Notes under the pieces: generated by a model
What the model was told of the DNA's origin: nothing
Seen by the model: the letters and a program-made list of their open reading frames with translations, nothing else
Database searches by the model: none
Position numbers and translations under genes: made by a program
Shown: positions 5,283 to 48,484 of the stretch, in pieces
Layout of the letters: each line of letters begins with the position of its first letter
Numbering within the stretch: position 1 is the first letter of the stretch
DNA from: Calditrichota bacterium
GTDB lineage: Bacteria; Zhuqueibacterota; Zhuqueibacteria; Zhuqueibacterales; Geothermadaptataceae
Length of the DNA stretch: 64,000 nt
Reading direction: 5' to 3'
NCBI GenBank assembly: GCA_008501765.1
Contig: QQUE01000002.1
Location: 244,336 to 308,335 of the forward strand

Positions 5283-6713
5283 ATGGCAAAAGGAATTACG
5301 AAAAGATCTGTCGACTACTCGCGTTGGTATACTGATGTTATAGCTGCGGCTCAACTTGCTGACCATGCCCCGGTTAAAGGATGCATGGTGATCCGCCCCA
5401 CTGGATATGCCATTTGGGAAAAAATGCAAGCGGCGCTGGATAAACTTTTTAAGGATACCGGGCACGAAAACGCCTATTTCCCTATCTTCATTCCGGAACA
5501 TTTTATGAAAAAAGAAGCCGAGCATGTGGAAGGTTTCGCCCCGGAATGCGCTGTTGTCACCCACGGTGGCGGAAAAAAACTGGAAGAACCCCTCTTTATT
5601 CGCCCGACTTCTGAAACGATTATTTGGTCGATGTACAAAGATTGGATCCAATCCTATCGCGATCTGCCACTGCTAATAAATCAGTGGGCCAACGTGGTTC
5701 GTTGGGAAATGCGCACGCGCTTGTTCCTGCGAACGACTGAATTTTTATGGCAGGAAGGGCACACAGCTCACGCAACTTACGAAGAAGCTGAGGCCGAAAC
5801 CCGGCAGATGCTCGAAGTGTACCGGATATTTGCGGAAGATCACATGGCTGTTCCCGTACTCACCGGAGTCAAAACCGAGCGTGAAAAATTTGCCGGTGCG
5901 CTGCATACCTATTGCATCGAAGCTATGATGCAGGATACCAAAGCGCTGCAAGCAGGAACCTCCCACAATCTCGGCCAAAATTTTGCCAAAGCATTTGACG
6001 TTACTTTTCAAAATGAAGCTGGCGAGCTGGAAAGTGTCTGGGCGACGAGCTGGGGAGTTTCAACGCGTTTAATCGGGGCACTAATCATGACCCACAGCGA
6101 TGATAATGGATTGGTCTTGCCACCTAAATTGGCGACAATTCCAGTTGTGCTCATCCCGATCTGGAAAAGTGACGAAGAAAAGCAAGCTGTTTTGCGCCGG
6201 GTCGAAAATTTGACTCGGGATTGGAAGGGTAAATTTAATTTTAAAATTGATGACCGGGACAATGTCAGACCGGGCTGGAAGTTCAATGAATGGGAGAAAA
6301 AAGGCATTCCAATCCGGCTGGAAATTGGGCCGAGGGACCTGGAAGCAAACGAAATCGTCCTGGTTCGCCGTGATACTAGCCAAAAGGTTCGTGTCTCACA
6401 GGATAATTTGACAGACCGCATCATCACAATGCTGGATACAATCCAGGCCGATATGTATGATCGGGCCGTGGCATTCCGCAAGGAAAACACGCACAAAGTT
6501 GATGATTATGAAGAGTTTAAACAACGTCTTGATTCTGAGGGTGGATTTTATTTAATCCATTGGAATGGTGAAACTTCCAGCGAAGAGAAGTTGCAGAATG
6601 AGACAAAAGCAACGATTCGTTGCATTCCCTTTGATGCACCCCAGGAAGCGGGGAAATGCCTGATTACCGGGGAGCCTTCAAAACGAAGAGTTGTTGTTGC
6701 ACGAGCCTACTAA
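5283..6713 (+). CDS. proS: Proline--tRNA ligase (class II, archaeal/eukaryotic-like type-3 ProRS)
   Basis: 476-aa ORF with clear class-II aaRS motifs and a ProRS C-terminal region (…[10 protein letters not shown]…[24 protein letters not shown]…[16 protein letters not shown]…). The short form lacking an insertion domain is typical of Bacteroidota-like type-3 ProRS. Confidence 0.95.
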
Positions 6714-6720
6714 TTCTGAA

Positions 6721-6750
6721 AAGCCACACTCGATCAAGTGTGGCTTTTTA
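6721..6750 (+). terminator. Rho-independent terminator after proS
   Basis: Hairpin AAGCCACACT-cgatca-AGTGTGGCTT followed by a T-run. Confidence 0.6.
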
Positions 6751-6855
6751 CTTTATATAGCGCCCATGTATTTTGCTGTTTTTTCATTTGGATTAAATTT
6801 ATACATTGATAGTCGTCATTTAGCAGCAAAGAGACTAATTGAGAGTTATTTTCAC

Positions 6856-7521
6856 ATGAAGCAATCACTTTTTATCATCGTAATTTTTACTATTTTTTCA
6901 GGTGCGAGTTGGTCGATCTGGGAATATCGCCATGCGACAATTCCAGTTACTGATATCGACGCGATGAAAAAGGTTGAGTATAAAAAAGGCACGACATTTG
7001 AGAAAATATTCTGGATTGATAAGTACGAAGTTTCCAACGGACAATATTGGCGCTGGGATGAATCACTCCAGTTTCCCGAACACAAAGTTGACTATCCGGT
7101 GACCGGAATTACCTGGTTTCAGGCGCAAGACTATGCTGCACACGTCGGTAAACGTTTGCCGACAAAGGAAGAATGGATGCTCGCCACGAAAGTAACGCTT
7201 GGAGATGAATTTAATCCCTGGGATTCCATCGACCGAATCCCTTATGTCCCTGAACCCGGGGATACCCACATTTATCGTGTTGGTAAATTTTGGCGCGACC
7301 GCACCGCGATCGGTTTAGCCAACATGTCGAGCAATGCCTGGGAATGGACTGCCGATACCTTGCGTTTGGCTGACAGTTCCCTTGCTGCCATTGTAAAAGG
7401 CGGATTCATCTATAAAAAGAAGAAATTACACTTCAAAGGAATCGAAAAAACAGATACAGTGCGTGTAAACGAAACCCGGCCTGATTTGGGCTTCCGCTGT
7501 ATCCGGGATAAAAATAAATGA
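6856..7521 (+). CDS. FGE-sulfatase (formylglycine-generating enzyme/SUMF1-like) domain protein
   Basis: YEVSNGQYWRW…DYPVTGITWFQAQDYAAHVGKRLPTKEEW…NAWEWTAD…GGF pattern characteristic of the FGE-sulfatase (DUF323) fold. The N-terminal TM/signal anchor begins at the internal Met (MKQSLFIIVIF…). Overlaps era by 4 bp (ATGA). Confidence 0.75.
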   Translation: MKQSLFIIVIFTIFSGASWSIWEYRHATIPVTDIDAMKKVEYKKGTTFEKIFWIDKYEVSNGQYWRWDESLQFPEHKVDYPVTGITWFQAQDYAAHVGKRLPTKEEWMLATKVTLGDEFNPWDSIDRIPYVPEPGDTHIYRVGKFWRDRTAIGLANMSSNAWEWTADTLRLADSSLAAIVKGGFIYKKKKLHFKGIEKTDTVRVNETRPDLGFRCIRDKNK

Positions 7522-24862: not shown

Positions 24863-26173
24863 ATGGTTACAGAATCCTTCAACAAACGTTTTTTTAAATT
24901 AGCAATTCCAAATATTTTAGCCAATATTTCAGTGCCGCTGGTAGGATTGGTCGATACCGCCATGCTTGGCCACCTCCCCGAAATTCATTTTCTCGCAGGC
25001 GTAGCGTTGGCATCCGTTCTGTTTGATTATATTTTCTGGACTTTCGGCTTTCTGCGCATGAGCACCACGGGCTTAACCGCCCAGGCAAGTGGCAAAAAAG
25101 ATATTCACGAAATTTACGCGATCTCCTATCGTGGGTTTGCCATCGCCTTGTTTGTCGGTTTGATACTAATTCTCTTTCGCAACATTATCTCTGCAACCGG
25201 TTTTGGTTTATTATCCGCCGAATCACTGGTAAAATTATCTGGTGAAGAATATTTCGCAGCCCGGATTTTAGGCGCGCCGGTCGTTTTGTGCAACTATGTT
25301 TTTGTGGGCTGGTTTCTCGGGCGCGAGCGCAGCGATTTGGTGCTGTACATGACGCTCGTCGGCAATGTCGCCAATGTCATTCTCAATTATATTTTCCTTT
25401 TTATCCTGGGACTGGCCGCCGCAGGTGTTGGTTGGGCAACTACAATCAGTAATATTTTGGCATTTTTTCTGGCTCTGGTTTTCTATAAATATGGCGCAAA
25501 AAAAATCAGCGTTGACTGGAAATCGGTGTTTACTCGCGAAAAACTTGTGCCTTTATTTAGCCTGAACCGGGATATTCTCATTCGCACATTATTTTTAATC
25601 AGTTCTTTCGGCGTATTCACAAATATCAGCTCGATTTTGGGCGTGTCCATTCTTGCTGTCAACACGATTATTTTACGAATTCTGTCTTTCGCAGCCTACC
25701 TGATCGACGGGATTGCTTTTGCAACCGAAAGCCTCGCCGGGATTTTCAAAGGCAGCAACGATCATCAATCGTTGAAAAAACTGCTAAAAACAGCCCTTTT
25801 ATGGGGTGAAGTTTTTGCCGTAGGGTTCATTGCGATTATGTTTTTAATACCCGATTATTTTTATCCCCTGATGACGTCACACGCTGATATAATTCAGCTT
25901 TTAAAAGTATACGATTACTGGGTTTATATCGCACTAATTTTTAGCGCCATCGCCTATATTTTTGATGGTTACTTTCTCGGCATCACCAATGCAAAAATAT
26001 TACGCAACAGCATGGTTCTCTGTTTTGTGGTGTTCTTTCTGCCGCTTGCCTGGCTCAGTGTCAAGCTGCACGATAATCACATTTTGTGGCTGGCGATGGT
26101 GGTATTTATGTTCGGCCGGGCAGCAACTTTGGGCTGGGGCGCATGGCGGGAAATTAAAATACGTGCAAGCTAA
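24863..26173 (+). CDS. MATE-family multidrug/oligosaccharidyl-lipid efflux transporter
   Basis: 436 aa with 12 predicted TM helices. N-terminal FFKLAIPNILANISVPLVGLVDTAMLGHL is a classic MATE (NorM/DinF) signature. Confidence 0.88.
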   Translation: MVTESFNKRFFKLAIPNILANISVPLVGLVDTAMLGHLPEIHFLAGVALASVLFDYIFWTFGFLRMSTTGLTAQASGKKDIHEIYAISYRGFAIALFVGLILILFRNIISATGFGLLSAESLVKLSGEEYFAARILGAPVVLCNYVFVGWFLGRERSDLVLYMTLVGNVANVILNYIFLFILGLAAAGVGWATTISNILAFFLALVFYKYGAKKISVDWKSVFTREKLVPLFSLNRDILIRTLFLISSFGVFTNISSILGVSILAVNTIILRILSFAAYLIDGIAFATESLAGIFKGSNDHQSLKKLLKTALLWGEVFAVGFIAIMFLIPDYFYPLMTSHADIIQLLKVYDYWVYIALIFSAIAYIFDGYFLGITNAKILRNSMVLCFVVFFLPLAWLSVKLHDNHILWLAMVVFMFGRAATLGWGAWREIKIRAS

Positions 26174-26267
26174 TTGGATTGAGGGATAATCACATTTTGT
26201 GACTGGCAATGGTGGTATTTATGTTCGGCCGGGCAGCAACTTTGGGCTGGGGCGCGTGGCGGGAGAT
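26072..26267. repeat. Tandem direct duplication (period 113 bp, ~83 bp duplicated) of the 3' end of the MATE gene
   Basis: 26072-26154 (within the CDS, ends ~20 bp before the stop) and 26185-26267 (after the stop) are ~95% identical (GATAATCACATTTTGTGRCTGGCRATGGTGGTATTTATGTTCGGCCGGGCAGCAACTTTGGGCTGGGGCGCRTGGCGGGA…). Confidence 0.7.
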
Positions 26268-26290
26268 GAAAGTGTAGCTATATTAACAAT

Positions 26291-27463
26291 TTAAATTTCT
26301 TCCAATAATGAAATCTTGTCAACTGTATCGATTAATATTCGTTTGTTAGCAGGATAGGATTTGAATAATTTACCTTGTGCTTCACTCATATTTGAGTAAA
26401 ACTTGGCTTCAATTAGTACCTTATCATCAGTGTAGAAATCAATTTCAATTGCATTTTCATACAAATAGTAAAGTTCTTTTTTATTGCGCATATTTATATA
26501 AACATAATTCTCAAAATAGCTCCCAATATCACGATTACCAACAAAAAGATATTTTATCCCCAAATCAGAAGCATAAATTTTTTTGGCGGAGAGCAACTTT
26601 TGATTTGTTTTACCCCATCGCGGCAACAAATGAATCAGATAGGTTGATTCGAAATAGTTCAAATATCTTTTTGAGGTATCTGGTGAAATCGCCAATATTT
26701 TACCTATTTTGTTAATGCTGAATTGCTTTCCGCTTCGCTCCATTAAAAGTGTAAAATAATCGCGTAAAATCTGGTGATTTTTTAATCCATGAAATGCAGT
26801 GATATCTTTCTGAATGATATCATCCACTAAATTCATCAAATATTCTCTGCTCGGCTGCAGCACATTCTCTGGTAATCCGCCTGTTTTTATATAATCGAGA
26901 AAATAAGTTTTAAGTAGTTGAACATCTCGCCTTTTTACTTCAATCCCTTTAAAGGAAAAATACTCATTTAAATCAAGTGGTTTTATTTCAAGTGTAATGG
27001 ACCTTCCAGTCAGGCTAGCCTTCTGGTCACGGAGTTTTGAGGCAGAAGATGATGCAACAAATATTTTAGCATTTTGTGAATCGTAGAGATTTTTAAGTTG
27101 GACTTGAAACTCATCCTTTGATGTTACTTCATCAAAAAAGAGATAAATTCTTTCATCGATCGTTATTTTATGCAGTTTTCGATATTCATTGACAATCTCT
27201 ATCATGCTTTGCTTCTGAATCAAATAATCATCCAGGCTAATGTAAAAAATATGCTTTGGTTGCACTTCTTTTGAAATCAATTCATCAATTATCAATTTCA
27301 TTAAACTCGTTTTCCCAACTCGGCGCAACCCTGTTAGAATAATGATTTGTTTCTGTTGTAGATATATTCGAAGATCGGAAAGATATTGTTCGCGTGGTTT
27401 CAAGTCAGCCGCAGCACGACTTTTCTCCCACCACGGGTTATACTGGTAAAGTAAATCATTCAT
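26291..27463 (-). CDS. AAA+ ATPase of the DUF4143/AAA_14 (COG1373-like) family
   Basis: MNDLLYQYNPWW…IIILTGLRRVGKTSLMKLII (P-loop) with a C-terminal DUF4143-like region. This family is widespread and often accessory. Confidence 0.75.
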   Translation of the reverse strand: MNDLLYQYNPWWEKSRAAADLKPREQYLSDLRIYLQQKQIIILTGLRRVGKTSLMKLIIDELISKEVQPKHIFYISLDDYLIQKQSMIEIVNEYRKLHKITIDERIYLFFDEVTSKDEFQVQLKNLYDSQNAKIFVASSSASKLRDQKASLTGRSITLEIKPLDLNEYFSFKGIEVKRRDVQLLKTYFLDYIKTGGLPENVLQPSREYLMNLVDDIIQKDITAFHGLKNHQILRDYFTLLMERSGKQFSINKIGKILAISPDTSKRYLNYFESTYLIHLLPRWGKTNQKLLSAKKIYASDLGIKYLFVGNRDIGSYFENYVYINMRNKKELYYLYENAIEIDFYTDDKVLIEAKFYSNMSEAQGKLFKSYPANKRILIDTVDKISLLEEI

Positions 27464-41019: not shown

Positions 41020-42243
41020 TTACCACGCCGGATCAATCATTCCAAAATGACGGCCAAACCAATAATTTCGCACCATCGCCGCTGCTATACCTTCTTCTTC
41101 AGATTCCACAATCTTAAAGCCAGCCTCTGTAGGGATTTTAAATTCTTTGGATCGGCGCTCAAAACCCCACATATTTTTGATGACCTGTTTTCGCTCGTCT
41201 GTCAGAACATTTTCCCCGGAAAGCACCTGATAAACCATAATAAACCAGATATCATCTTCGAAGCTGAAATCATGGTTTTGCCAAACATACCAGTGTCGGT
41301 TTAAATTCATTTTATATTTGATCATTAATGACCGGTCATGTTCGAGGCGCATCAGCATATAAAGAGATCGTGCTGCATGATAATCGTCGCCTTTATTTCG
41401 CCATTCTTCCGGCCAGATAATTTTCGAGCGCAGTTGATGATCATCATAGTGATAGCGGTCGATGAGCATGTGGTAGGCTGCATTATAACGCTCTTTCCCG
41501 GTAATTCGATGGGTGACTTTCAAAGCCATCAACATTTCCAACGAGTTGAGTGCCTGGTGTGGCAAGTCCGGGCAAAAATTACCCCACAATGTCATTTTCC
41601 CATCCAGGTCGGTGAGCTTGAAATTATTGTCAATGATCCGCCCTAAAAAACGATCCAGCAGGTTTGCTGCCTTCTGTTTATATTTTTCATCGGCACAGAA
41701 TTCCCAAAAGGTTCCAACTCCATAAAAAATGGAGGTAAATTTGTCTGCACTGAGATCACCCAGCCAGCGATAGCCGGGTATGGAGGTTGACCAATGCCAT
41801 TCCATCGGGTACCATAAAACTTTTTCATGCCACAACGGTTTGTCAGTCTTGTTAAAACTGCGAGCAACCAGGCCGGGAACTCCGGTTACTTTTTCCAGCT
41901 TTAATATTCCTTCAAAAATCTGATTGGCAATCTTTCGCGCATTGGGATCCTTCGTTACAAAATATTTGTGAGAATACGCAGCGAGCATTTCTGATGTTGG
42001 GTCCAAACAATCAGCCTGAGAACCCACAATAGGCCGGTCCAGCCCCGCCGGTGGGAAAATAACATGCTGCATGATTGTGCCTTCATTCCAGTGGTTTCCG
42101 CGAATCAATTTATCGTACATGTCCACTTTGATATGCAGCGGGTCTGTTTTTTGGGGAAAATCGTTGACTTTCTGAGCAAAAACAGAATCACTGAAACTCA
42201 GGATCAGGAAAACAAACAGTGAGGCAAGAATACTTTTAAACAT
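41020..42243 (-). CDS. Hypothetical secreted protein
   Basis: Signal peptide MFKSILASLFVFLILSFSDSVFAQ. 407 aa, Trp-rich. No motif recognised. Confidence 0.45.
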   Translation of the reverse strand: MFKSILASLFVFLILSFSDSVFAQKVNDFPQKTDPLHIKVDMYDKLIRGNHWNEGTIMQHVIFPPAGLDRPIVGSQADCLDPTSEMLAAYSHKYFVTKDPNARKIANQIFEGILKLEKVTGVPGLVARSFNKTDKPLWHEKVLWYPMEWHWSTSIPGYRWLGDLSADKFTSIFYGVGTFWEFCADEKYKQKAANLLDRFLGRIIDNNFKLTDLDGKMTLWGNFCPDLPHQALNSLEMLMALKVTHRITGKERYNAAYHMLIDRYHYDDHQLRSKIIWPEEWRNKGDDYHAARSLYMLMRLEHDRSLMIKYKMNLNRHWYVWQNHDFSFEDDIWFIMVYQVLSGENVLTDERKQVIKNMWGFERRSKEFKIPTEAGFKIVESEEEGIAAAMVRNYWFGRHFGMIDPAW

Positions 42244-42284
42244 TATTTCTCCGTGAAATAGTTTCTGAAAATCCGTACTGTCTA

Positions 42285-42986
42285 TTAATCAATATCTTTG
42301 ACACAGCGAAAACCAACCGGATAACGAGCGGTTGTGTGGGGCGGGACATAATACCGATGTGTTGTTCGAATAAAGGAATGGTTATTAAAATTGGATCCAC
42401 CGCGCATCACTTTATAGCGTTCCCCGTATTCTTTCATAGGAACATCATTTCCCGGATAAGGTTTGTACCAGTCCGCTGTCCATTCCCACACGCTGCCGGC
42501 CATATCAAAGCAACCGTATGGGCTTTCCGGTTTGGCGATGGCGCTTCCGCGTGGATGGCGTAAATCCCAAACGACAAAAGTCTCATCATAAGTATTGCCC
42601 CAGGGGAAAATACGACCATCGGTACCGCGAGCCGCTTTTTCCCACTCTTTTTCTGTGGGCAATCGCTTACCCGCCCACTTCGCGTAGGCGTTCGCCTGTT
42701 CCCATATGACAATCACTGGATGCTCTTCTCTTCCTTGAGGAAAATTAAAGTTAGCATCAAATTGCGCAAACTCAGAATTGCTCACTTCATATTTATCAAT
42801 AAAAAAAGCTCCTGTTCTGGCAATGTGTTGCGGCCTCTCATCGGGATCGCCATAAGTGCTCCCCATGATAAAATCGCCAGCCGGGACATAGACCATGCCT
42901 TGCGGTGGTTCAGGTTCTCCATTTACTTTTTCGTTTGCGCTTGGCGCCGTCAAACAAAGGTACATTATAAACAAGAGTGTTTTCAT
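42285..42986 (-). CDS. FGE-sulfatase (SUMF1-like) domain protein, paralog of 6856-7521
   Basis: Signal peptide. …GMVYVPAGDFIMGS…FFIDKYEVSNSEFAQF…KWAGKRLPTEKEWEKAARGTDGRIFPWGN…GSVWEWTADWY…VMRGGSNF…RYPVGFRC is the full FGE-sulfatase signature. Confidence 0.8.
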   Translation of the reverse strand: MKTLLFIMYLCLTAPSANEKVNGEPEPPQGMVYVPAGDFIMGSTYGDPDERPQHIARTGAFFIDKYEVSNSEFAQFDANFNFPQGREEHPVIVIWEQANAYAKWAGKRLPTEKEWEKAARGTDGRIFPWGNTYDETFVVWDLRHPRGSAIAKPESPYGCFDMAGSVWEWTADWYKPYPGNDVPMKEYGERYKVMRGGSNFNNHSFIRTTHRYYVPPHTTARYPVGFRCVKDID

Positions 42987-43100
42987 TTTTTTGCCATCCC
43001 ATAATTAAAAAATTTGCGCTCGGATTAGTGAACTCCGAGTCTCAGTAGTTGATTCAATTTCGCTATTGCCAGCAACTAAAATCCGGTTGTGTTTGCCTGG

Positions 43101-43478
43101 TCACTGGTCACTGGTCACTTCAATATAAACATGTTCGAGGCTTATTTCCCGCAGTGAAACCGAAGAAACCGGCACGCCATCCAGCTTTCCGATGAATTCT
43201 TTCAGCGTGAAAATTTGCGGCAAAAGCAACGCCGCGCCGATGAGAATGCCCGGCACCGTCGCATCGAATGATTTTGAGTCATTGATTCCGCCAGCGTAAA
43301 TGAGCCCGAAAAGCAGCAGCGTGGGGAAAACCACCCAGAAAACCAGGCTACGCCGCATGCGCAGCAACTCTGTCAAAATACGTTTGGTGATCGCGATTAC
43401 TTCATTGAACTGGTGTTGCATGAAAACACCTCTTTCTGCTAATGAGAGCTGAGAATTAGAGAAAATTATCCACTTCAT
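43101..43478 (-). pseudogene. Possible truncated ABC-2-type permease remnant
   Basis: The N-terminus (…ITKRILTELLRMRRSLVFWVVFPTLLLFGLIY) resembles the start of ABC-2 permeases. The ORF stops after 125 aa and has no ATPase partner nearby. Confidence 0.3.
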
Positions 43479-43711
43479 TCAGTAAATGTTCCCGTGATTT
43501 CATGACAAATCACAGACATTTTCTCTCTCAAATGCGTCACCCCGGTTTGCGCTTTTCGCAATTCTGGGGTCTCCCAAAGTTTGAGTCTGACACCGGGGGA
43601 TCCCGGTATTTCACTTTGTGAAAACCGGGATGACCGGAATACTATTTTATCGTTTCTAATTTAAACTGTGACTAATCTGTTCCACACTAAATTCCTGATC
43701 GATTAGAGCGC

Positions 43712-44846
43712 TTTGCAGGCCACAAGGGCCTGGGCTACAGGTTCAAACTAAAAAAATGGTGTTCGCCCCCTTGTGGGGCGGTACGTGGCATGGGCATTTA
43801 TTTGCCGCCTTTTATTTTATCCAACAAACTCTGTAAATTCTTCTGCACCGTTTGCGTGCCGGGATGGTCAGGTTTGCAGGCCACAAGGGCCTGGGCTACA
43901 GTATTAATATAAATAAAATTTCGTAGCCCGCCCCTTTGTGGGGCGGCGCGTGGCATGGGCATTTATTTGCCGCCTTTTATTTGTTCCAACAATCTTTGCA
44001 AATTACCCTGCACGGTTTGTGTGCCGGGATGGTCAGTTTTGCAGGCCACAAGGGCCTGGGCTACAGTATTAATATAAACAAAATTTCGTGGCCCGCCCCT
44101 TTGTGGGGCGGCGCGTGGCATGGGCATTTATTTGCCGCCTTTTATTTTATCAAACAAAATCTGCAAATTCTTTTGCACCGTTTGTGTGCCGGGATGGTCA
44201 GGTTTGCAGGCCACAAGGGCCTGGGCTACAGTATTAATATAAACAAAATTTCGTGGCCCGCCCCTTTGTGGGGCGGCGCGTGGCATGGGCATTTATTTGC
44301 CGCCTTTTATTTGTTCCAACAATCTTTGCAAATTACCCTGCACGGTTTGTGTGCCGGGATGGTCAGTTTTGCAGGCCACAGTATTAATATAAACAAAATT
44401 TCGTAGCCCGCCCCCTTGTGGGGCGGTGCGCGGCATGGGCATTTATTTGCCACCTTTTATTTGTTCCAACAATCTTTGCAAATTACCCTGCACGGTTTGT
44501 GTGCCGGGATGGTCAGTTTTGCAGGCCACAAGGGCCTGGGTTACAGGTTCAAACTAAAAAAATGGTATTCGCCCCCTTGTGGGGCGGTGCGTGGCATGGG
44601 CATTTAGTTGCCGCCTTTCATTTCATCCAATAAACTCTGTAAATTCTTTTGCACCGTTTGTGTGCCGGGATGGTCAGGTTTGCAGGCCACAAGGGCCTGG
44701 GTTACAGTATTAATATAAACAAAATTTCGTAGCCCGCCCCCTTGTGGGGCGGTGCGCGGCATGGGCATTTATTTGCCGCCTTTTATTTTACCCAACAAAC
44801 TTTGCAAATTACGCTGCACCGTTTGTGTGCTGGGATGGTCAGCGCC
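43712..44846. repeat. Tandem array of ~7 units (165/161/150 bp) each reproducing the last ~24 codons + stop + 3'-UTR hairpins of the adjacent TIR-NB-ARC-TPR gene
   Basis: Units start at 43712, 43873, 44038, 44203, 44368 (15-bp deleted variant), 44518 and 44679; the last unit is the real gene end. Two sequence types alternate (…AGTATTAATATAAACAAAATTTCGT… versus …AGGTTCAAACTAAAAAAATGGT…). On the minus strand each unit reads as a C-terminal peptide variant followed by TAA (QRNLQSLLGKIKGGK*, QGNLQRLLEQIKGGK*, QKNLQSLLDKIKGGK*, QKNLQSLLDEMKGGN*). A GC-rich hairpin (CCGCCCC-acaa-GGGGCGG) with a U-rich tail and a second hairpin (CAGGCC-cuugu-GGCCUG) follow each peptide. Confidence 0.9.
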
Positions 44847-47240
44847 CAGTTTTTCATTAACAATTTCCAGCGCCCGACGATAGAGCGGTTCCACGGTGGT
44901 CAAATCGCCTTTGTCCTGCAGCAATCCCGCCAGGTTGTTGAGATCAATTGCTACATCTGGATGATCCTGCCCCAATGCTTTTTCATCGATTTCTAGCGCC
45001 CGGCGGTAGAGCGGCTCCGCAGCGTTCAAATCGCCTTTGTCCTGCAGCAATCCCGCCAGATTGTTGAGCCTTAGAGCAACTTTCGGGTGATCCGGCCCCA
45101 ACGTTTTTTCACCTATTTCCAGCGCCCGGCGGTAGAGCGGCTCCGCGGCGGTCAATTCGCCTTTGGCCCGCAGCAATCCCGCCAGGTTGTTGAGCCTTAG
45201 AGCAATTTTCGGGTGATCCGGCCCCAATGTTTTTTCACCGATTTCCAGTGCCCGGCGGTAGAGCGGTTCCGCAGCGGTCAAATCGCCTTTGGCCCGCAGC
45301 AATCCTGCCAGGTTGTTGAGATCAATTGCTACATCGGGATGATCCTGCCCCAATGCGTTTTCATCGATTGCCAGCGCCCGGCGGTAGAGCGGCTCCGCCG
45401 CGATCAAATCGCCTTTGTCCTGCAGCAAATTCGCCAGGTTGTTGAGCCGAATGGCCACAGCCTCGTGTTCAAAGCCTCGCACTTTTTCGTCAATTTTCAG
45501 CGCCCGCCGGTAGAGCAGTTCTGCGGCGGCGTAGCGGGCCTGGCTCTGTAAAAAAAGTGCCATTTGATTTTGCAGGGTGGCGGTTTCTGTTAGCTGCAGA
45601 CCGTGGCGCGCAGCATGATCCGTCACACTCAATCCATGTGGTAAAAGCCTTTCACAATCTGGCCATGAACGGTAGTCCAGCGGATCCGTGTCTGAAGGAA
45701 AAACAGCATTTACCAATTCAACCGCTTTTTCAGCGATTGTCGCATATTTTTTCTCTGGCAAGCGATCGCGGGTCACGGCCTGCACCAGGCGGTGGCAGTT
45801 TAAATGATTGTCCTGCAAATCAATCAAAGCATAGCGCCGCAGCAAAGCCAAGGTTTCCTGCCATGCCAGCGGATCGGCCACTTTCTTTTGCAGACTGGCG
45901 GGCAGTTTGTCGCCCGCTGCGGTAAACAATTCCAGTGGAATATCTTGCGGCGCTAAAAAAGCGCATAAATTAAGCAATTCAATAGCAGCTTTATTTTCAT
46001 TTTTTAACTGCAGAAACGCCATTTCCCAGGCTGTGGCCACGGTTTCCGGGTAATCGGGTGGCTGGCCTTTTTTGAGCAATCTTTTCCGTTGGCCGGTAAA
46101 CAGTTTCAAATAAGCAGAAAAATCCAGGGCGCTGGCTTCCATGTACGCCGCTGCCTGTTCCAGCGCCAGCGGCAAATCGCCGAGGGCTTCAGCAACCTCA
46201 TGCGCCCCTTTTTCATCGTCGCAGCCGCTGCGCTGCCGCAGAAAAGCCACAGACTCGTCACGGTCGAGCACTTCCACGCTCAACGGCTGCGCCAATCCGC
46301 GCCAGTTGGGGCTGCGCGAGGTGAGAATCACGTGTCCGGCACCGCCCTGGGGCACAAACGGGCGCACGGCGTCGGCTTTTTCCACGTTGTCAAAAATCAG
46401 CAGCCAGCTCTGCGCACTGCCAAACCAGCGCAGCACAGCGTCTATTTTTGCATCCTGCTCGCGGGTGTCTTTTTCGGGCAGATCGAACCAATGTGCCAGC
46501 TCCGCTATTTCTCCGGCGAGCACCTGCGGTTCTTCAGCATTGAGCCAACAGATACAAGCGTATTCATTTTTGTGGCGGTGGGCGTATTCCAGGGCAATTT
46601 GCGTTTTGCCAATGCCGCCGAGTCCGTGTATCGCCTGCGGTTGGGTCACAGCGGCGTTTTTGCCGGCAGCCAGGGTGGTGTGCAAATCGGCTAAAATTTG
46701 TTCACGGCCGGTAAAATTGGGGTTGCGCAAAAAAGGCACTTTCCAAACCGGCGGCAGACTGCCGGGGAAACGGGGTTCGGGGCGTGATGCAGAAATTGTG
46801 GCCGGAAACGCTGGTTCCGTAGCTGGTTTGCCGCGTGCGTCAGTTAGCGCCTTGTCTATTTCATGCAGCAAAAAATCACAAGCATCTGAATTATTTTTTC
46901 CAACCAGATCGATATAAACGATGGCTTTTAGCATTCCTTTAAGTTCACATTTCTCAATGCACACAGGCAGAAGTTTTCTGTCCGTCCCGGTGGGATCATC
47001 CGCAAATGCAGCGGCCCATTCTGGCTGGGTGTAAATGGCGTTGAGAAAATGAGGTGATAAAACAGCGACCGTGCGGCGCGCTTCGGTGGCTGCCCTCTGC
47101 ATTTCGAGTACAAAATTGCTGCCTGCATGAAAATCCCATGCCTGGATAATTAATGAATAATCCGCTTTTTCAAGTTGCCAGGCAATCCATTCGGCCCACG
47201 CCTTGTCCGCGCGGGTGTAACTGATAAAAAAATCTTTCAC
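44769..47240 (-). CDS. TIR-NB-ARC-TPR STAND NTPase (bacterial NLR-like; candidate antiphage defence protein)
   Basis: N-terminal TIR_2-type domain (FISYTRADKAWAEWIAWQLEKADYSLIIQAWDF…NFVLEMQRA…TVAVLSPHFLNAIYTQPEWAAAF). NB-ARC P-loop GLGGIGKTQIALEYA, Walker B LLIFDNVE, VILTSR and GDLPLAL (GLPL) motifs. A C-terminal array of at least 7 near-identical 42-aa TPR repeats (…AAEPLYRRALEIGEKTLGPDHPKIALRLNNLAGLLRAKGELT…). Confidence 0.9.
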   Translation of the reverse strand: MKDFFISYTRADKAWAEWIAWQLEKADYSLIIQAWDFHAGSNFVLEMQRAATEARRTVAVLSPHFLNAIYTQPEWAAAFADDPTGTDRKLLPVCIEKCELKGMLKAIVYIDLVGKNNSDACDFLLHEIDKALTDARGKPATEPAFPATISASRPEPRFPGSLPPVWKVPFLRNPNFTGREQILADLHTTLAAGKNAAVTQPQAIHGLGGIGKTQIALEYAHRHKNEYACICWLNAEEPQVLAGEIAELAHWFDLPEKDTREQDAKIDAVLRWFGSAQSWLLIFDNVEKADAVRPFVPQGGAGHVILTSRSPNWRGLAQPLSVEVLDRDESVAFLRQRSGCDDEKGAHEVAEALGDLPLALEQAAAYMEASALDFSAYLKLFTGQRKRLLKKGQPPDYPETVATAWEMAFLQLKNENKAAIELLNLCAFLAPQDIPLELFTAAGDKLPASLQKKVADPLAWQETLALLRRYALIDLQDNHLNCHRLVQAVTRDRLPEKKYATIAEKAVELVNAVFPSDTDPLDYRSWPDCERLLPHGLSVTDHAARHGLQLTETATLQNQMALFLQSQARYAAAELLYRRALKIDEKVRGFEHEAVAIRLNNLANLLQDKGDLIAAEPLYRRALAIDENALGQDHPDVAIDLNNLAGLLRAKGDLTAAEPLYRRALEIGEKTLGPDHPKIALRLNNLAGLLRAKGELTAAEPLYRRALEIGEKTLGPDHPKVALRLNNLAGLLQDKGDLNAAEPLYRRALEIDEKALGQDHPDVAIDLNNLAGLLQDKGDLTTVEPLYRRALEIVNEKLGADHPSTQTVQRNLQSLLGKIKGGK
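44855..45560. repeat. Intragenic 126-bp near-identical tandem DNA repeats encoding the TPR units
   Basis: A repeating block (…CAGCGCCCGGCGGTAGAGCGGCTCCGCRGCGGTCAAWTCGCCTTTGKCCYGCAGCAATCCCGCCAGGTTGTTGAG…) is visible about 5-6 times. The same periodicity appears in the antisense ORF translations. Confidence 0.8.
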
Positions 47241-47267
47241 GTGATCTCCCCAATCAATTTAAACTAA

Positions 47268-47534
47268 TGATTGTGACCCTAGCTCCGCTGTACTTAATCT
47301 AATTGCAAAATTTTTAATGTGTTGTGCATTTTCTTTTTTGCTTGATCAAAAAAGAAACAAAAAAATCAAGGCTGACGAAAAATCGGCTAAACTTTTTGAG
47401 AATTTCCTAAATCATTTTAAACTCGCTGCGCTCGAACAAAAAATGATTCTTAACGGAAATTCTCAAAAAGTTCTTAACGCCATTTTTCGAAGGCCGTTTA
47501 AGAAAAAGACCGCGGAGCTAAAGGCCTAATCAAT
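47268..47534 (+). mobile_element. MITE-like element, copy B (~267 bp), 25 bp upstream of the STAND gene start; TSD TAAACTAA/TAAACTAT
   Basis: Near-identical to the reverse complement of 4657-4943. Imperfect TIRs. 8-bp flanking direct repeat with 7/8 match. Confidence 0.7.
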
Positions 47535-47779
47535 TAAACTATTTCATCCATTCGCTGAGCCTGTTCAGCCTGGTCACAGAGCTTGCCGAAGTGCACACCT
47601 ACAAATATTGAGCAGCAAGATATCGAAAATTTTTCCCTTCGACACTTCGACTCGGCTCAGTGCAAGCACGCTCAGGGAGCGTAATTTACGAACGCAGAGA
47701 GTGCCTTCTAAATGCTGAGAGAGGGCAAGCCCTTTGTGGATTGCATCAGCATTGCATAAAGGCAATGCACTCCTTATTC

Positions 47780-48484
47780 TCACCGCCGCGCTGTTTGCAG
47801 CATTTTGGCGGCCCACTGCTGCAGCGGCAGCATGGTTTTACAAATATTGAGGCAGAAATCGATGATATCGGGTGAATAAAGTTCGGCTGGAACGGAATTT
47901 TCCCAAAACGCCGATACGCCGTTTAAGCGTAATAATTCTTCATACTTTGAATCAGCGTCAAAACCGCGGGGCACCCGCTTGTAGTGCGGCTGCTGCAGTT
48001 GCAAGTCGCTTTTGCGCACCGCGTCCAGAATTTTCAGCAATGCGTCGCCGTTGGCCGCTTTGTTCACATAATCGCGGTAAAACGGCAGCACCTCTTTACC
48101 AAAAATGTGGGAGCCCGAGCCCAGCATCAATTTGTCTTTGGTCAAACTGAAATAAAAGCCGGAATTTTCGACGCGGGATTTGCCAGTGCCCTGCCAGAAC
48201 CAGATGGCGAGATTGGTTTTGTAAGGCGTCTTGTTGGCGCTAAAACGGGTATCGCGGTAAATGCGAAACAGCGATTTGTTGACGCGCGGATCGGCATTGA
48301 TTTCCGGAATCCAAACTTTGAGTCTTTCACCCATCGCCACAATAAACTGCCGTGCCGGTGCGAGTACAAATTCTTCGTATTCCGATTTGTGCTCATCGAA
48401 CCACGGTTTGTTGTTATTCTCCGTGAGATCTGTTAAAAATGTGACCGCTTCTTTTGGAAATCCGGCAAAGTTTTGAGCTGGCAT
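47780..48484 (-). CDS. DUF2461 (TIGR02453) family protein
   Basis: FLTDLTENNNKPWFDEHKSEYEEFVLAPARQFIVAM… RFSANKTPYKTNLAIWF matches the conserved DUF2461 pattern (F…L..NN...WF..H...Y......P…DTRFS.DK.PYK). Confidence 0.65.
   Translation of the reverse strand: MPAQNFAGFPKEAVTFLTDLTENNNKPWFDEHKSEYEEFVLAPARQFIVAMGERLKVWIPEINADPRVNKSLFRIYRDTRFSANKTPYKTNLAIWFWQGTGKSRVENSGFYFSLTKDKLMLGSGSHIFGKEVLPFYRDYVNKAANGDALLKILDAVRKSDLQLQQPHYKRVPRGFDADSKYEELLRLNGVSAFWENSVPAELYSPDIIDFCLNICKTMLPLQQWAAKMLQTARR

What the first reader, a model, noticed from the sequence alone, without database searches (positions are those of the whole stretch)
43712..44846. Array of ~7 tandem 'C-terminal cassette + terminator' units downstream of a TIR-NB-ARC-TPR STAND gene
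Each ~165-bp unit is a diverged copy of the gene's last ~24 codons plus stop codon plus two 3'-UTR hairpins. In the gene's frame the units encode distinct tail variants that all end in a TAA (…QRNLQSLLGKIKGGK*, …QGNLQRLLEQIKGGK*, …QKNLQSLLDKIKGGK*, …QKNLQSLLDEMKGGN*). Two unit types alternate, and one unit carries a clean 15-bp deletion.

This is not CRISPR: whole units are conserved and there are no spacers. It is not a DGR either: there is no RT, and the substitutions are not adenine-restricted. The layout resembles a bank of silent 3' cassettes that could be swapped into the expressed gene by homologous recombination or gene conversion, as in pilE/pilS-style antigenic variation. It could also be the product of repeated slipped-strand duplication of the recombination-prone repetitive 3' end.

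I know of no described cassette bank of this kind for a STAND/NLR-like defence gene.
Basis: seen in the sequence. Interest (0 to 1): 0.85.

Follow-up and report, generated by a model that had tools for sequence, protein, structure and literature searches.

The report
REP-hairpin cluster that copied a gene tail
The seven-unit repeat after this bacterial immune-sensor-like gene is real, but its "terminator hairpins" belong to a known class of selfish palindromic repeats (REPs) that often multiply in tandem with neighbouring DNA, so the spare gene tails are most likely a by-product and not a purpose-built switching bank.

Summary
Window 43712-44842 is a 7.0-copy tandem array with a 165-bp period. 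It abuts the 3' end of an 823-aa TIR/NB-ARC/TPR gene (minus strand, 44769-47240). Each unit holds the last 23 codons plus TAA, then two hairpins. One unit has a 15-bp deletion.

The interpretation changes. The two hairpins are one GTAG-tagged REP motif in opposite orientations: H1 is GTAGCCCGCCCCCTTGTGGGGCGG and H2 is GTAGCCCAGGCCCTTGTGGCCTG. The exact H2 23-mer and close variants occur at least 139 times on at least 120 GC-rich metagenome contigs. There they are depleted from coding sequence, sit mostly just after stop codons, form inverted dimers and make short tandem clusters. One contig, L169, has the same dimer layout as here.

Published surveys describe REP dimers and REPINs "reiterated in tandem along with flanking DNA". 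This array fits that description, with the gene's last 74 nt as the flanking DNA. None of 60 testable homologous loci has such an array. The window has no RT, recombinase or Y1 transposase among its ORFs of 150 aa or more. A second, REP-free 3'-end duplication sits after a MatE gene in the same window.

The cassette idea is not excluded. Units are mosaic, and silent tails keep family-conserved residues (pN/pS about 0.2-0.6; weak statistics). No switching evidence exists.

The parts
44769..47240 (-). TIR / NB-ARC / TPR STAND gene (823 aa; NCBI KAA3619500.1, Calditrichota MAG). Its last 74 nt (44769-44842) form unit 0 of the array.
   Evidence: ORF list, translation, Pfam, NCBIfam NF040586 at 473.6 bits, 100% match to P0001.
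43712..44842 (-). Tandem array of 7 units: u0 44678-44842, u1 44517-44677 (161 nt), u2 44367-44516 (150 nt), u3 44202-44366, u4 44037-44201, u5 43872-44036, u6 43711-43871.
   Evidence: TRF, the repeat finder, unit extraction, alignment.
43798..44677 (-). Six silent tail copies of 74 nt each, with no gene body. Coordinates: 44604-44677 (u1), 44443-44516 (u2), 44293-44366 (u3), 44128-44201 (u4), 43963-44036 (u5), 43798-43871 (u6). Each keeps DHPGTQTVQ.NL..L....GG. plus TAA.
   Evidence: Homologues end in the same LG.DHP.T..V..NL..L motif.
43758..44752 (+). Seven H1 REP copies (GTAGCCCGCCCCCTTGTGGGGCGG and variants with GTGG/GTAT/GTGT heads), read on the + strand: 43758-43781, 43923-43946, 44088-44111, 44253-44276, 44403-44426, 44564-44587, 44729-44752.
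   Evidence: The hairpin is predicted in every unit. It lies 2 compensatory changes from the partner REP in SXG* contigs.
43716..44705 (-). Six H2 REP copies (GTAGCCCAGGCCCTTGTGGCCTG; GTAA head in u0 and u1), read on the - strand: 43716-43738, 43877-43899, 44042-44064, 44207-44229, 44522-44544, 44683-44705. The u2 copy is truncated by the 15-bp deletion (about 44372-44380).
   Evidence: The exact 23-mer occurs 54 times among the first 80 metagenome loci.
44863..45529 (-). In-gene TPR DNA repeats (period 126 nt, 4.7 copies, 84%) directly abutting the array. The whole 3' half of the locus is repetitive.
   Evidence: TRF, the repeat finder family D3.

Best explanation
The array is a tandemly reiterated REP-dimer cluster (BIME- or REPIN-cluster-like). 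When it first duplicated, it took the last 74 nt of the adjacent STAND gene along as flanking DNA.

**Layout after the stop codon.** There are 16 nt, then an inverted REP (H1), then a 23-nt AT-rich spacer, then a forward REP (H2). This is a dimer with the GTAG tags facing inward.

**Inferred history.**
1. A first illegitimate duplication ran from codon 801 to just past H2. The two outer boundaries share the microhomology GCGCT.
2. That created direct repeats.
3. Unequal crossing-over, slippage and gene conversion then expanded and shuffled the units. The same REP family does this at other loci.

**Inferred consequences.** Only unit 0 is translated. The six downstream tails are silent by-products. 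The stack of stable stem-loops probably acts on the transcript as REPs do elsewhere (3' protection or attenuation). Recombination inside the array can replace the protein's last 15 residues, but as an unprogrammed side effect.

**Shown:** the anatomy, REP identity, the family's behaviour elsewhere, mosaic units, and absence of dedicated enzymes in the window. **Inferred:** the origin, the expansion mechanism, the RNA effect, and the lack of selection for switching.
For: 1. **Same motif in both hairpins.** H1 and H2 share a GTAG head, CCC, a 6-7-bp stem and a CTTGT loop, in opposite orientation.
2. **Dispersed family.** The first 80 loci alone contain the H2 23-mer 54 times exactly. There are none in viral contigs.
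3. **REP-like distribution.** Of 139 copies, 22% lie inside crude coding predictions that cover 58% of the sequence. Where an upstream ORF is predicted, 59% lie within 150 nt downstream of its stop.
4. **Dimers.** Copies form inverted dimers with a partner that is 2 compensatory changes from H1.
5. **Tandem clusters.** 11 of 120 loci carry tandem REP clusters with periods of 28-95 nt. L169 repeats the same inverted-REP, short spacer, forward-REP, spacer layout 2.3 times.
[quoted passage not shown] 7. **The tail is native.** It matches the family's C-terminus, so it was copied from the gene and not brought in by the element.
8. **Not a family feature.** None of 60 testable homologous loci has tail copies or an array.
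9. **Recombination among units.** u4 carries a K-class tail with an A-type spacer that is 1 nt from u3.
10. **No dedicated enzyme.** No RT, recombinase, integrase or Y1 transposase is found among the window's ORFs of 150 aa or more.
11. **Internal control.** The MatE gene at 24863-26173 has its last ~100 nt duplicated once just after its stop, with no REP, and the silent copy carries a nonsense codon.
Against: - The REP motif occurs nowhere else in the 64-kb window. All family hits come from contigs of about 62% GC, while the window is about 43% GC. High copy number in this genome is therefore unshown.
- No RAYT was linked to this REP family. The one Y1_Tnp found, on L107, is flanked by a different palindrome.
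- Divergence along the unit is uneven: tail middle 0.19 per site against 0.03-0.04 at the tail ends.
- Silent tails have no stop, no indel and no change at 7 family-conserved codons (simulated P = 0.007), and pN/pS is mostly 0.2-0.6 with pS up to 0.39. This is more order than simple neutral decay predicts. By contrast, the silent MatE copy already has a nonsense codon.
- The 165-nt period is larger than any cluster seen in the sampled family (maximum 95).
Confidence: 0.72

Rival explanations
1. Selected cassette bank. The silent tails are a reservoir that is moved into the expressed gene by gene conversion or unequal crossover to vary the last ~15 residues of the TPR sensor. The conserved REPs and tail ends serve as homology arms (pilE/pilS-like or orphan-CT-like).
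For: - Conserved blocks flank a variable block.
- There are three tail classes, and the expressed tail looks like a mosaic of the K and G classes.
- No stop, no indel and no change at family-conserved residues in six silent tails, with pN/pS below 1.
- The variable residues fall at positions that also vary among homologues.
Against: - The expressed tail differs by at least 7 nt from every silent copy, so no recent whole-tail transfer has occurred.
- Only 3-4 distinct variants exist, covering a C-terminal capping half-repeat.
- There is no array at 60 homologous loci.
- The statistics are weak and partly post hoc: P(at least 7 synonymous) = 0.064.
- The architecture is fully accounted for by known REP-cluster behaviour.
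- No population data exist to show switching.
Confidence: 0.12
2. Plain 3'-end tandem duplication in which the REPs are passengers. Duplications spanning a stop codon are neutral and simply persist. The REP dimer happened to lie in the duplicated segment and did not promote amplification.
For: - The same window has a REP-free 3'-end duplication after MatE.
- GCGCT microhomology sits at the outer boundaries.
Against: - There are seven copies with higher-order structure here, against a single extra copy at MatE.
- The same REP family forms tandem clusters at 11 of 120 other loci.
- The literature reports that REP clusters are over-represented.
Confidence: 0.1
3. Assembly artefact. Strain variants of a single or shorter 3' end were concatenated or mis-counted in the MAG.
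For: - The source is a metagenome-assembled genome.
- Logan k=31 contigs break at the array.
- u3 and u5 share a 125-nt exact stretch.
Against: - Six unit-to-unit junctions (H2-CAAA[A/C]-CTGACC) cannot come from single-copy alleles.
- No 127-mer is repeated.
- The distal unit plus flank, read on Logan contig L001, is identical to the window, and L002 from a second read set ends at the same point.
Confidence: 0.04
4. The units are expressed genes. Either back-to-back 54-aa ORFs (stop and start adjacent, TAAATG) are translated by termination-reinitiation, or small RNAs are made from the + strand.
For: - Five units form ATG ORFs of 54 or 49 aa that start right after the previous TAA.
- The 165-nt period and the 15-bp deletion both keep the frame.
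- By my reading of the + strand, each unit also has a hairpin followed by TTTTATTTT.
Against: - B-type units break the ORF.
- By my own count on the alignment, the REP-encoded half of the ORF shows about 5 nonsynonymous changes to 1 synonymous.
- There are no family hits for the ORF, no Rfam hit, no promoter-like site inside the array, and no exact ORF on record elsewhere.
Confidence: 0.02

Closest known systems
GTAG-tagged REP elements and their clusters (BIMEs; Di Nocera, De Gregorio & Rocco 2013, PMC3733652)
   Same: - A 23-24-nt GC-rich imperfect palindrome with a terminal GTAG (degenerate to GTAA or GTGG in some copies, as reported for some families).
- Stems of 6-9 bp.
- Inverted dimers spaced 20-100 bp apart.
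- Location just downstream of a coding region.
- Clusters made of dimers reiterated in tandem with flanking DNA.
   Different: - The co-amplified flanking DNA is the coding 3' end plus stop codon of a gene.
- The host is a ~43% GC Calditrichota MAG in which no other copy is seen within 64 kb.
- The associated RAYT was not found.
REPIN clusters and tandemly repeated REP arrays of Pseudomonas fluorescens SBW25 (Bertels & Rainey 2011, PMC3116915)
   Same: - Ordered tandem repeats of REP doublets, including flanking sequence.
- Arrays of two REP types with two alternating spacings (112 + 72 = 184 bp there; about 95 + 23 plus the REPs = 165 bp here).
- Up to 12 REPs per array there, 13 here.
   Different: - The REP sequence family and the phylum are different.
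- The SBW25 arrays are extragenic, whereas this one overlaps a gene end.
- Units here are more diverged (75-94% against 'nearly identical').
Neisseria pilE/pilS silent-cassette antigenic variation (from general knowledge)
   Same: - Promoterless partial 3' copies sit near an expressed gene.
- Conserved segments flank variable segments.
- The copies are in direct orientation.
   Different: - The cassettes are only 23 codons long, with 3-4 variants.
- No evidence of conversion into the expressed copy.
- No dedicated cis element was identified.
- The repeat scaffold is a REP family that forms such arrays without any cassette function.
Orphan CdiA-CT / Rhs-CT modules downstream of the main gene (from general knowledge)
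   Same: Displaced alternative C-terminal ends accumulate downstream of a full-length gene and share a short homology region with it.
   Different: There is no toxin or immunity content. The tails are homologous variants of one capping helix and not unrelated domains. The array is regular and REP-based.

Membership tests
REP (GTAG-tagged repetitive extragenic palindrome) | Short (20-40 bp) imperfect palindrome with a conserved GTAG tetranucleotide at one end | tested here: met
   H1 is GTAGCCCGCCCCCTTGTGGGGCGG and H2 is GTAGCCCAGGCCCTTGTGGCCTG. The hairpins are predicted in every unit. The criteria come from PMC3733652.
REP (GTAG-tagged repetitive extragenic palindrome) | Many dispersed copies of the same sequence in a genome | tested here: inconclusive
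These contigs are about 62% GC and are not this organism. Within the 64-kb window the motif occurs only in the array. The rest of the 1.3-Mb contig could not be read.
REP (GTAG-tagged repetitive extragenic palindrome) | Extragenic, predominantly just downstream of coding regions | tested here: met
   22% of copies lie inside predicted coding sequence against 58% coverage. Where an upstream ORF is predicted, 59% lie within 150 nt after its stop codon. In the window, the first REP starts 17 nt after the stop.
REP (GTAG-tagged repetitive extragenic palindrome) | Association with a REP-associated tyrosine transposase (RAYT) | tested here: not met
   No Y1_Tnp is found among the window's ORFs of 150 aa or more. 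The only Y1_Tnp found on a family contig (L107) is flanked by a different palindrome. The sample is far too small to exclude a RAYT elsewhere in the genome.
REP cluster / BIME / tandem REPIN cluster | REP dimers in inverted orientation reiterated in tandem together with flanking DNA | tested here: met
   There are seven units of inverted H1, a 23-nt spacer, H2, and 95 nt of gene tail plus linker. The same family shows tandem clusters at 11 of 120 loci, including the same layout in L169. The definitions are in PMC3733652 and PMC3116915.
Silent-cassette gene-conversion system (pilE/pilS type) | Promoterless partial copies with variable segments flanked by conserved segments | tested here: met
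   Six tails lack a gene body. The variable block is columns 23-60 (0.19 per site) and the conserved ends are at 0.03-0.04.
Silent-cassette gene-conversion system (pilE/pilS type) | Sequence from silent copies appears in the expressed copy in different cells or isolates (non-reciprocal transfer) | not testable with these tools
   No second sequence of this gene exists in the searched collections. The best relative is at most 53% identical. The array-specific H1 pattern gave 0 hits in the metagenome contigs. The expressed tail differs by at least 7 nt from every silent copy.
Diversity-generating retroelement | Reverse transcriptase nearby and adenine-specific differences between template and variable repeat | tested here: not met
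   No RT domain is found in any scanned ORF of the window. Only 3-6 of 7-12 mismatches are at A of the silent copy.
CRISPR array | Short identical repeats separated by unique spacers of similar size | tested here: not met
   Whole 165-nt units are homologous throughout, and the 'spacers' are diverged copies of each other. No Rfam hit reached its family's gathering score anywhere in the window, and the permissive scan of 43300-45000 gave only one chance-level hit outside the array.
FxSxx-COOH RiPP system (name PGAP would give the gene) | TPR protein encoded with a radical-SAM maturase and FxSxx-COOH precursor peptides | tested here: not met
   The gene scores 473.6 bits on NF040586, above its cut-off of 300. 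No radical-SAM or SPASM protein is found in the window, and the 54-aa ORFs end in IKGGK, not FxSxx.

The most novel reading that the evidence does not exclude
REP-scaffolded tail switching. The REP dimers act as portable homology or recombination sites that keep a small bank of protein-competent alternative C-terminal capping helices. Intra-array recombination exchanges these into a bacterial NLR-like TIR/NB-ARC/TPR sensor, and selection acts on every tail because each spends time in the expressed position.
Probability: 0.1. Interest if true: 0.65.

Novelty: new member of a known kind. Interest (0 to 1): 0.3.

Why it matters
It re-files an apparently unprecedented "cassette bank" as a REP/REPIN tandem cluster. 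This is a practical warning: arrays of a gene tail plus hairpins next to defence genes can be made by selfish palindromic repeats.

It extends a GTAG-REP family, otherwise seen here in GC-rich metagenome contigs, to a Calditrichota MAG.

It also gives a clean example of REP-cluster growth capturing coding sequence with its stop codon. If the weak coding-like conservation of the silent tails proved real, it would show how a selfish repeat can incidentally provide raw material for C-terminal variation of an NLR-like sensor. That part is unproven.

Tried and rejected
- **Rfam.** A gathering-threshold scan of the whole window and a permissive scan of 43300-45000 found nothing relevant.
- **Exact-product look-ups.** The STAND protein and two of the 54-aa ORFs are not on record.
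- **Orthologous arrays.**
  - GTDB representatives gave 80 loci at up to 52% identity; none of the 60 testable had tail copies or arrays.
  - Two searches of the 5.8-billion-protein database found only the protein itself at 100% and nothing else above 53% (65% for the C-terminal 101 aa).
  - The one search list oddly omitted the query's own protein, so it is not a reliable negative.
- **Array-specific pattern.** H1 with its ATGCCCATGCC flank gave 0 hits in JGI metagenomes.
- **Viral contigs.** 0 hits for the REP pattern.
- **Intrinsic-terminator reading.** No canonical site was found in the array.
- **RiPP-precursor and FxSxx reading.** Rejected.
- **DGR, shufflon or invertase.** No RT or recombinase in the window, and substitutions are not adenine-restricted.
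- **Integron attC reading.** By inspection, the unit junctions do not fit GTTRRRY.
- **RAYT search.** It found one Y1_Tnp on L107, but that gene is flanked by a different palindrome.
- **Weak resemblance set aside.** The tail's first 25 nt resemble the spacer-plus-REP-b segment of the metagenomic dimers at about 17 of 25 positions with one gap. I judged this too weak to use.
Full report

Yes. Tandem Repeats Finder reports 43712-44842 as a 165-bp period with 7.0 copies, 85% matches and score 1597. An ungapped repeat search gives seven copies spaced 165, 165, 165, 150, 161, 165.

The array abuts the 3' end of a minus-strand ORF at 44769-47240 (823 aa). That ORF carries TIR_2 (residues 4-121), NB-ARC plus DUF7779, and six TPR_12/TPR_10 repeats. 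The protein is identical to NCBI KAA3619500.1, [quoted passage not shown], on a 1.3-Mb contig.

Read on the minus strand, each unit is 74 nt of gene tail (23 codons plus TAA) followed by about 91 nt with two GC-rich hairpins.
- Unit 0 is the gene's own end, so there are six silent tails.
- All seven tails end in TAA.
- u2 has a 15-bp deletion that removes the 5' arm and loop of the second hairpin.
- The "two alternating types" are not strictly alternating. Spacer types run A,B,A(del),A,A,A,B.

Assembly error is unlikely.
- Six unit-to-unit junctions exist.
- The longest exact internal repeat is 125 nt, and no 127-mer recurs.
- Two Logan assemblies from other read sets carry the identical neighbouring gene and end at the same point inside the array. 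The L001 end, which I read, reproduces the distal unit and flank exactly. Logan contigs break there as expected for k=31.

**2. What the hairpins are**

The scan for intrinsic terminators finds none in the array. The T-run begins 7 nt after the stem.

Reading both strands shows that the two hairpins are the same motif in opposite orientation. H1 on the + strand is GTAGCCCGCCCCCTTGTGGGGCGG. H2 on the - strand is GTAGCCCAGGCCCTTGTGGCCTG. Each has a GTAG head, CCC, a 6-7-bp stem and a CTTGT loop.

It hit none in viral contigs. I estimate only a few chance hits for a pattern with about 20 bases of information. That figure is my estimate and not a tool output.

In the first 80 loci, the H2 23-mer occurs 54 times exactly and a GGG/CCC stem variant 36 times. 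Several features mark the family as REP-like.
- **Composition.** The contigs are about 62% GC.
- **Position.** Across all 120 loci, 22% of 139 copies lie inside crude coding predictions that cover 58% of the sequence. Where an upstream ORF is predicted, 59% lie within 150 nt downstream of its stop.
- **Dimers.** Copies usually sit in inverted dimers. In the SXG* contigs the partner is GTAGCCCGACCCCTTGTGGGTCGG, two compensatory changes from H1.
- **Tandem clusters.** Eleven of 120 loci have tandem REP clusters with periods of 28-95 nt. L169 repeats inverted REP, 15 nt, forward REP, 38 nt a total of 2.3 times, which is the layout seen here.

These are the defining properties of GTAG-tagged REPs (PMC3733652).

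**3. What the array is**

After the stop codon come 16 nt, inverted H1, a 23-nt AT-rich spacer, and H2. Then the next tail begins.

[quoted passage not shown] They also describe arrays of two REP types with alternating 112- and 72-bp spacings carrying up to 12 REPs.

The present array fits that description, with 13 REPs and a 165-bp period. The flanking DNA that was carried along is the last 74 nt of the gene.

The tail was copied from the gene and not contributed by the element. Most homologues in many phyla end in LG.DHP.T..V..NL..L....

The array is not a family trait. None of 60 homologous loci with enough downstream sequence shows tail copies or an array, and none of the 80 loci has the REP motif.

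The outer boundaries share GCGCT...CTGGGCGCT|GACC in the gene and ...CAAAGCGCT|CTAAT after the last unit. This is compatible with a microhomology-mediated founding duplication. The internal junctions (CAAA[A/C]CTGACC) differ slightly from the predicted one, so this step is inference.

The window contains a control. The MatE gene (24863-26173) has its last ~100 nt duplicated once just after its stop at 94% identity, with no REP, and the silent copy carries TGG>TGA. So 3'-end-spanning duplications do arise and persist in this genome without any special function.

**4. Evidence bearing on the cassette idea**

Units are mosaic.
- Tail classes are G (u2, u3, u5), K (u1, u4, u6) and the intermediate expressed tail.
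- Spacer classes are A (u0, u2-u5) and B (u1, u6).
- u4 couples a K tail to an A spacer that is 1 nt from u3.

Recombination among units has therefore happened, as expected in any tandem array.

Diversity is uneven: 0.19 per site in the tail middle against 0.03-0.04 at the tail ends.

The silent tails are unusually well preserved.
- None has a stop, an indel or a replacement at seven family-conserved codons.
- Nei-Gojobori pN/pS between tails is mostly 0.2-0.6, with pS up to 0.39.
- In a simulation of 19 random substitutions, P(no stop) = 0.35, P(at least 7 synonymous) = 0.064 and P(no hit at conserved codons) = 0.007.

This is suggestive of protein-level constraint, but the counts are tiny and the tests are partly post hoc. 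The silent MatE copy also shows mostly synonymous differences.

Such a pattern could arise in two ways. Units could rotate through the expressed position by unequal crossover over evolutionary time. Or units could descend from diverged functional alleles. It does not require a programmed system.

Several points count against active switching.
- The expressed tail differs by at least 7 nt from every silent tail.
- Only 3-4 variants exist.
- The variable part is a C-terminal capping half-repeat.

No population data exist. The only database relative above 53% identity is the protein itself. The H1-specific pattern gave no metagenome hit. The C-terminal query found nothing near-identical, although that list oddly omitted the query's own protein and is a weak negative.

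**5. Other readings**

- **DGR** is excluded. No RT is found in any ORF of 150 aa or more in the window, and mismatches are not adenine-restricted.
- **Shufflon or invertase.** No recombinase, integrase or Y1 transposase is in the window.
- **Expressed ORFs.** Five units form back-to-back ATG ORFs of 54 or 49 aa that start right after the previous TAA.
  - B-type units break them.
  - By my count on the alignment, the REP-encoded half shows about five replacements to one silent change.
  - No family or exact match exists for the ORF.
- **FxSxx system.** The gene exceeds the NCBIfam cut-off for "FxSxx-COOH system TPR protein". No radical-SAM partner or FxSxx peptide is present, so that name should not be read as function.

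**6. Caveats on REP membership**

The motif is absent from the rest of the 64-kb window.

All other family members found are from GC-rich contigs, while the window is 42-45% GC and the STAND gene is 50-52%. Either the family is sparse in this genome, or the gene arrived with its REP dimer by horizontal transfer. The AT-rich inter-REP spacers look host-like.

No RAYT could be tied to the family. The single Y1_Tnp found, on L107, is flanked by a different palindrome. Both points can be settled by scanning the full MAG, which these tools could not read.

**7. Verdict**

The array is real and unusual-looking. Its architecture is that of a REP-dimer tandem cluster that captured a gene's 3' end, and I file it as a new member of a known kind.

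The most likely function-level statement is that REP stem-loops decorate the 3' end of the STAND transcript, and that the silent tails are by-products whose exchange into the gene is possible but unprogrammed (confidence 0.72). The selected cassette-bank reading keeps about 0.1 probability. Interest: 0.3.

Noticed in passing
window 26072-26271 (MatE gene 24863-26173): The last ~100 nt of a MatE transporter gene are duplicated once just after its stop codon (87-nt copies, 94% identical, 113 nt apart). No REP is involved, and the silent copy carries a TGG>TGA nonsense change.
   Followed up: partly
window 47390-47472 (and 47268-47532): A perfect 18-nt inverted repeat with a 47-nt loop sits in the AT-rich region upstream of the STAND gene. 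Both Logan contigs from the other side (L003, L004) end at about 47505, right next to it. This suggests a repeated or mobile palindromic element, or a strain-variable boundary.
   Followed up: partly
window 44863-45529: The TPR-coding 3' half of the STAND gene is itself a DNA tandem repeat (period 126 nt, 4.7 copies, 84%). This is the high internal repeat conservation reported for NLR-like sensors, and it directly abuts the REP array.
   Followed up: no
window 44001-48000: The STAND gene region is 50-52% GC against 38-48% in the rest of the window (42-46% in the immediate flanks). This hints at horizontal acquisition. Its closest relatives (at most 53% identity) are scattered over Acidobacteriota, KSB1, Chlorobi, Chloroflexota and Methanothrix.
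   Followed up: partly
window 44769-47240: The gene scores above the curated cut-off of NCBIfam NF040586, 'FxSxx-COOH system TPR protein' (473.6 against 300 bits). The window has no radical-SAM maturase or FxSxx precursor, so an automatic name would mislead.
   Followed up: yes
window 43798-44768 (minus strand): Five back-to-back ATG ORFs of 54 or 49 aa start immediately after the previous TAA (TAAATG). Each consists of a REP-encoded half plus the next tail. They are probably a coincidence of the 165-nt (55-codon) period, and the B-type units break them.
   Followed up: partly
window 41020-43478 and 6691-7521, 26291-27463: Downstream of the array on the same strand lie an unannotated 125-aa ORF, an FGE-sulfatase-domain protein and an unannotated 407-aa protein. 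A second FGE-sulfatase-domain gene and an AAA_14/DUF4143 ATPase (weak nSTAND3 hit) lie elsewhere in the window. These are possibly conflict-system components.
   Followed up: no
L107 9832-11058: A planctomycete-like metagenome contig carries a Y1_Tnp (IS200-like) gene flanked by a different palindrome (GCAGCAGCCCGGCTGCTG...). Next to it is a 272-nt tandem repeat (2.2 copies) that contains that palindrome. This is another REP-like family forming a cluster beside its putative transposase.
   Followed up: partly
window 44820-44842 and the start of each unit: The first ~25 nt of the tail (GACCATCCCGGCACACAAACGGTGC) can form a small hairpin. They weakly resemble the spacer-plus-REP-b segment of the metagenomic dimers (about 17 of 25 positions with one gap). 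A pseudo-REP in the coding sequence might have set the duplication boundary, but the match is too weak to rely on.
   Followed up: no
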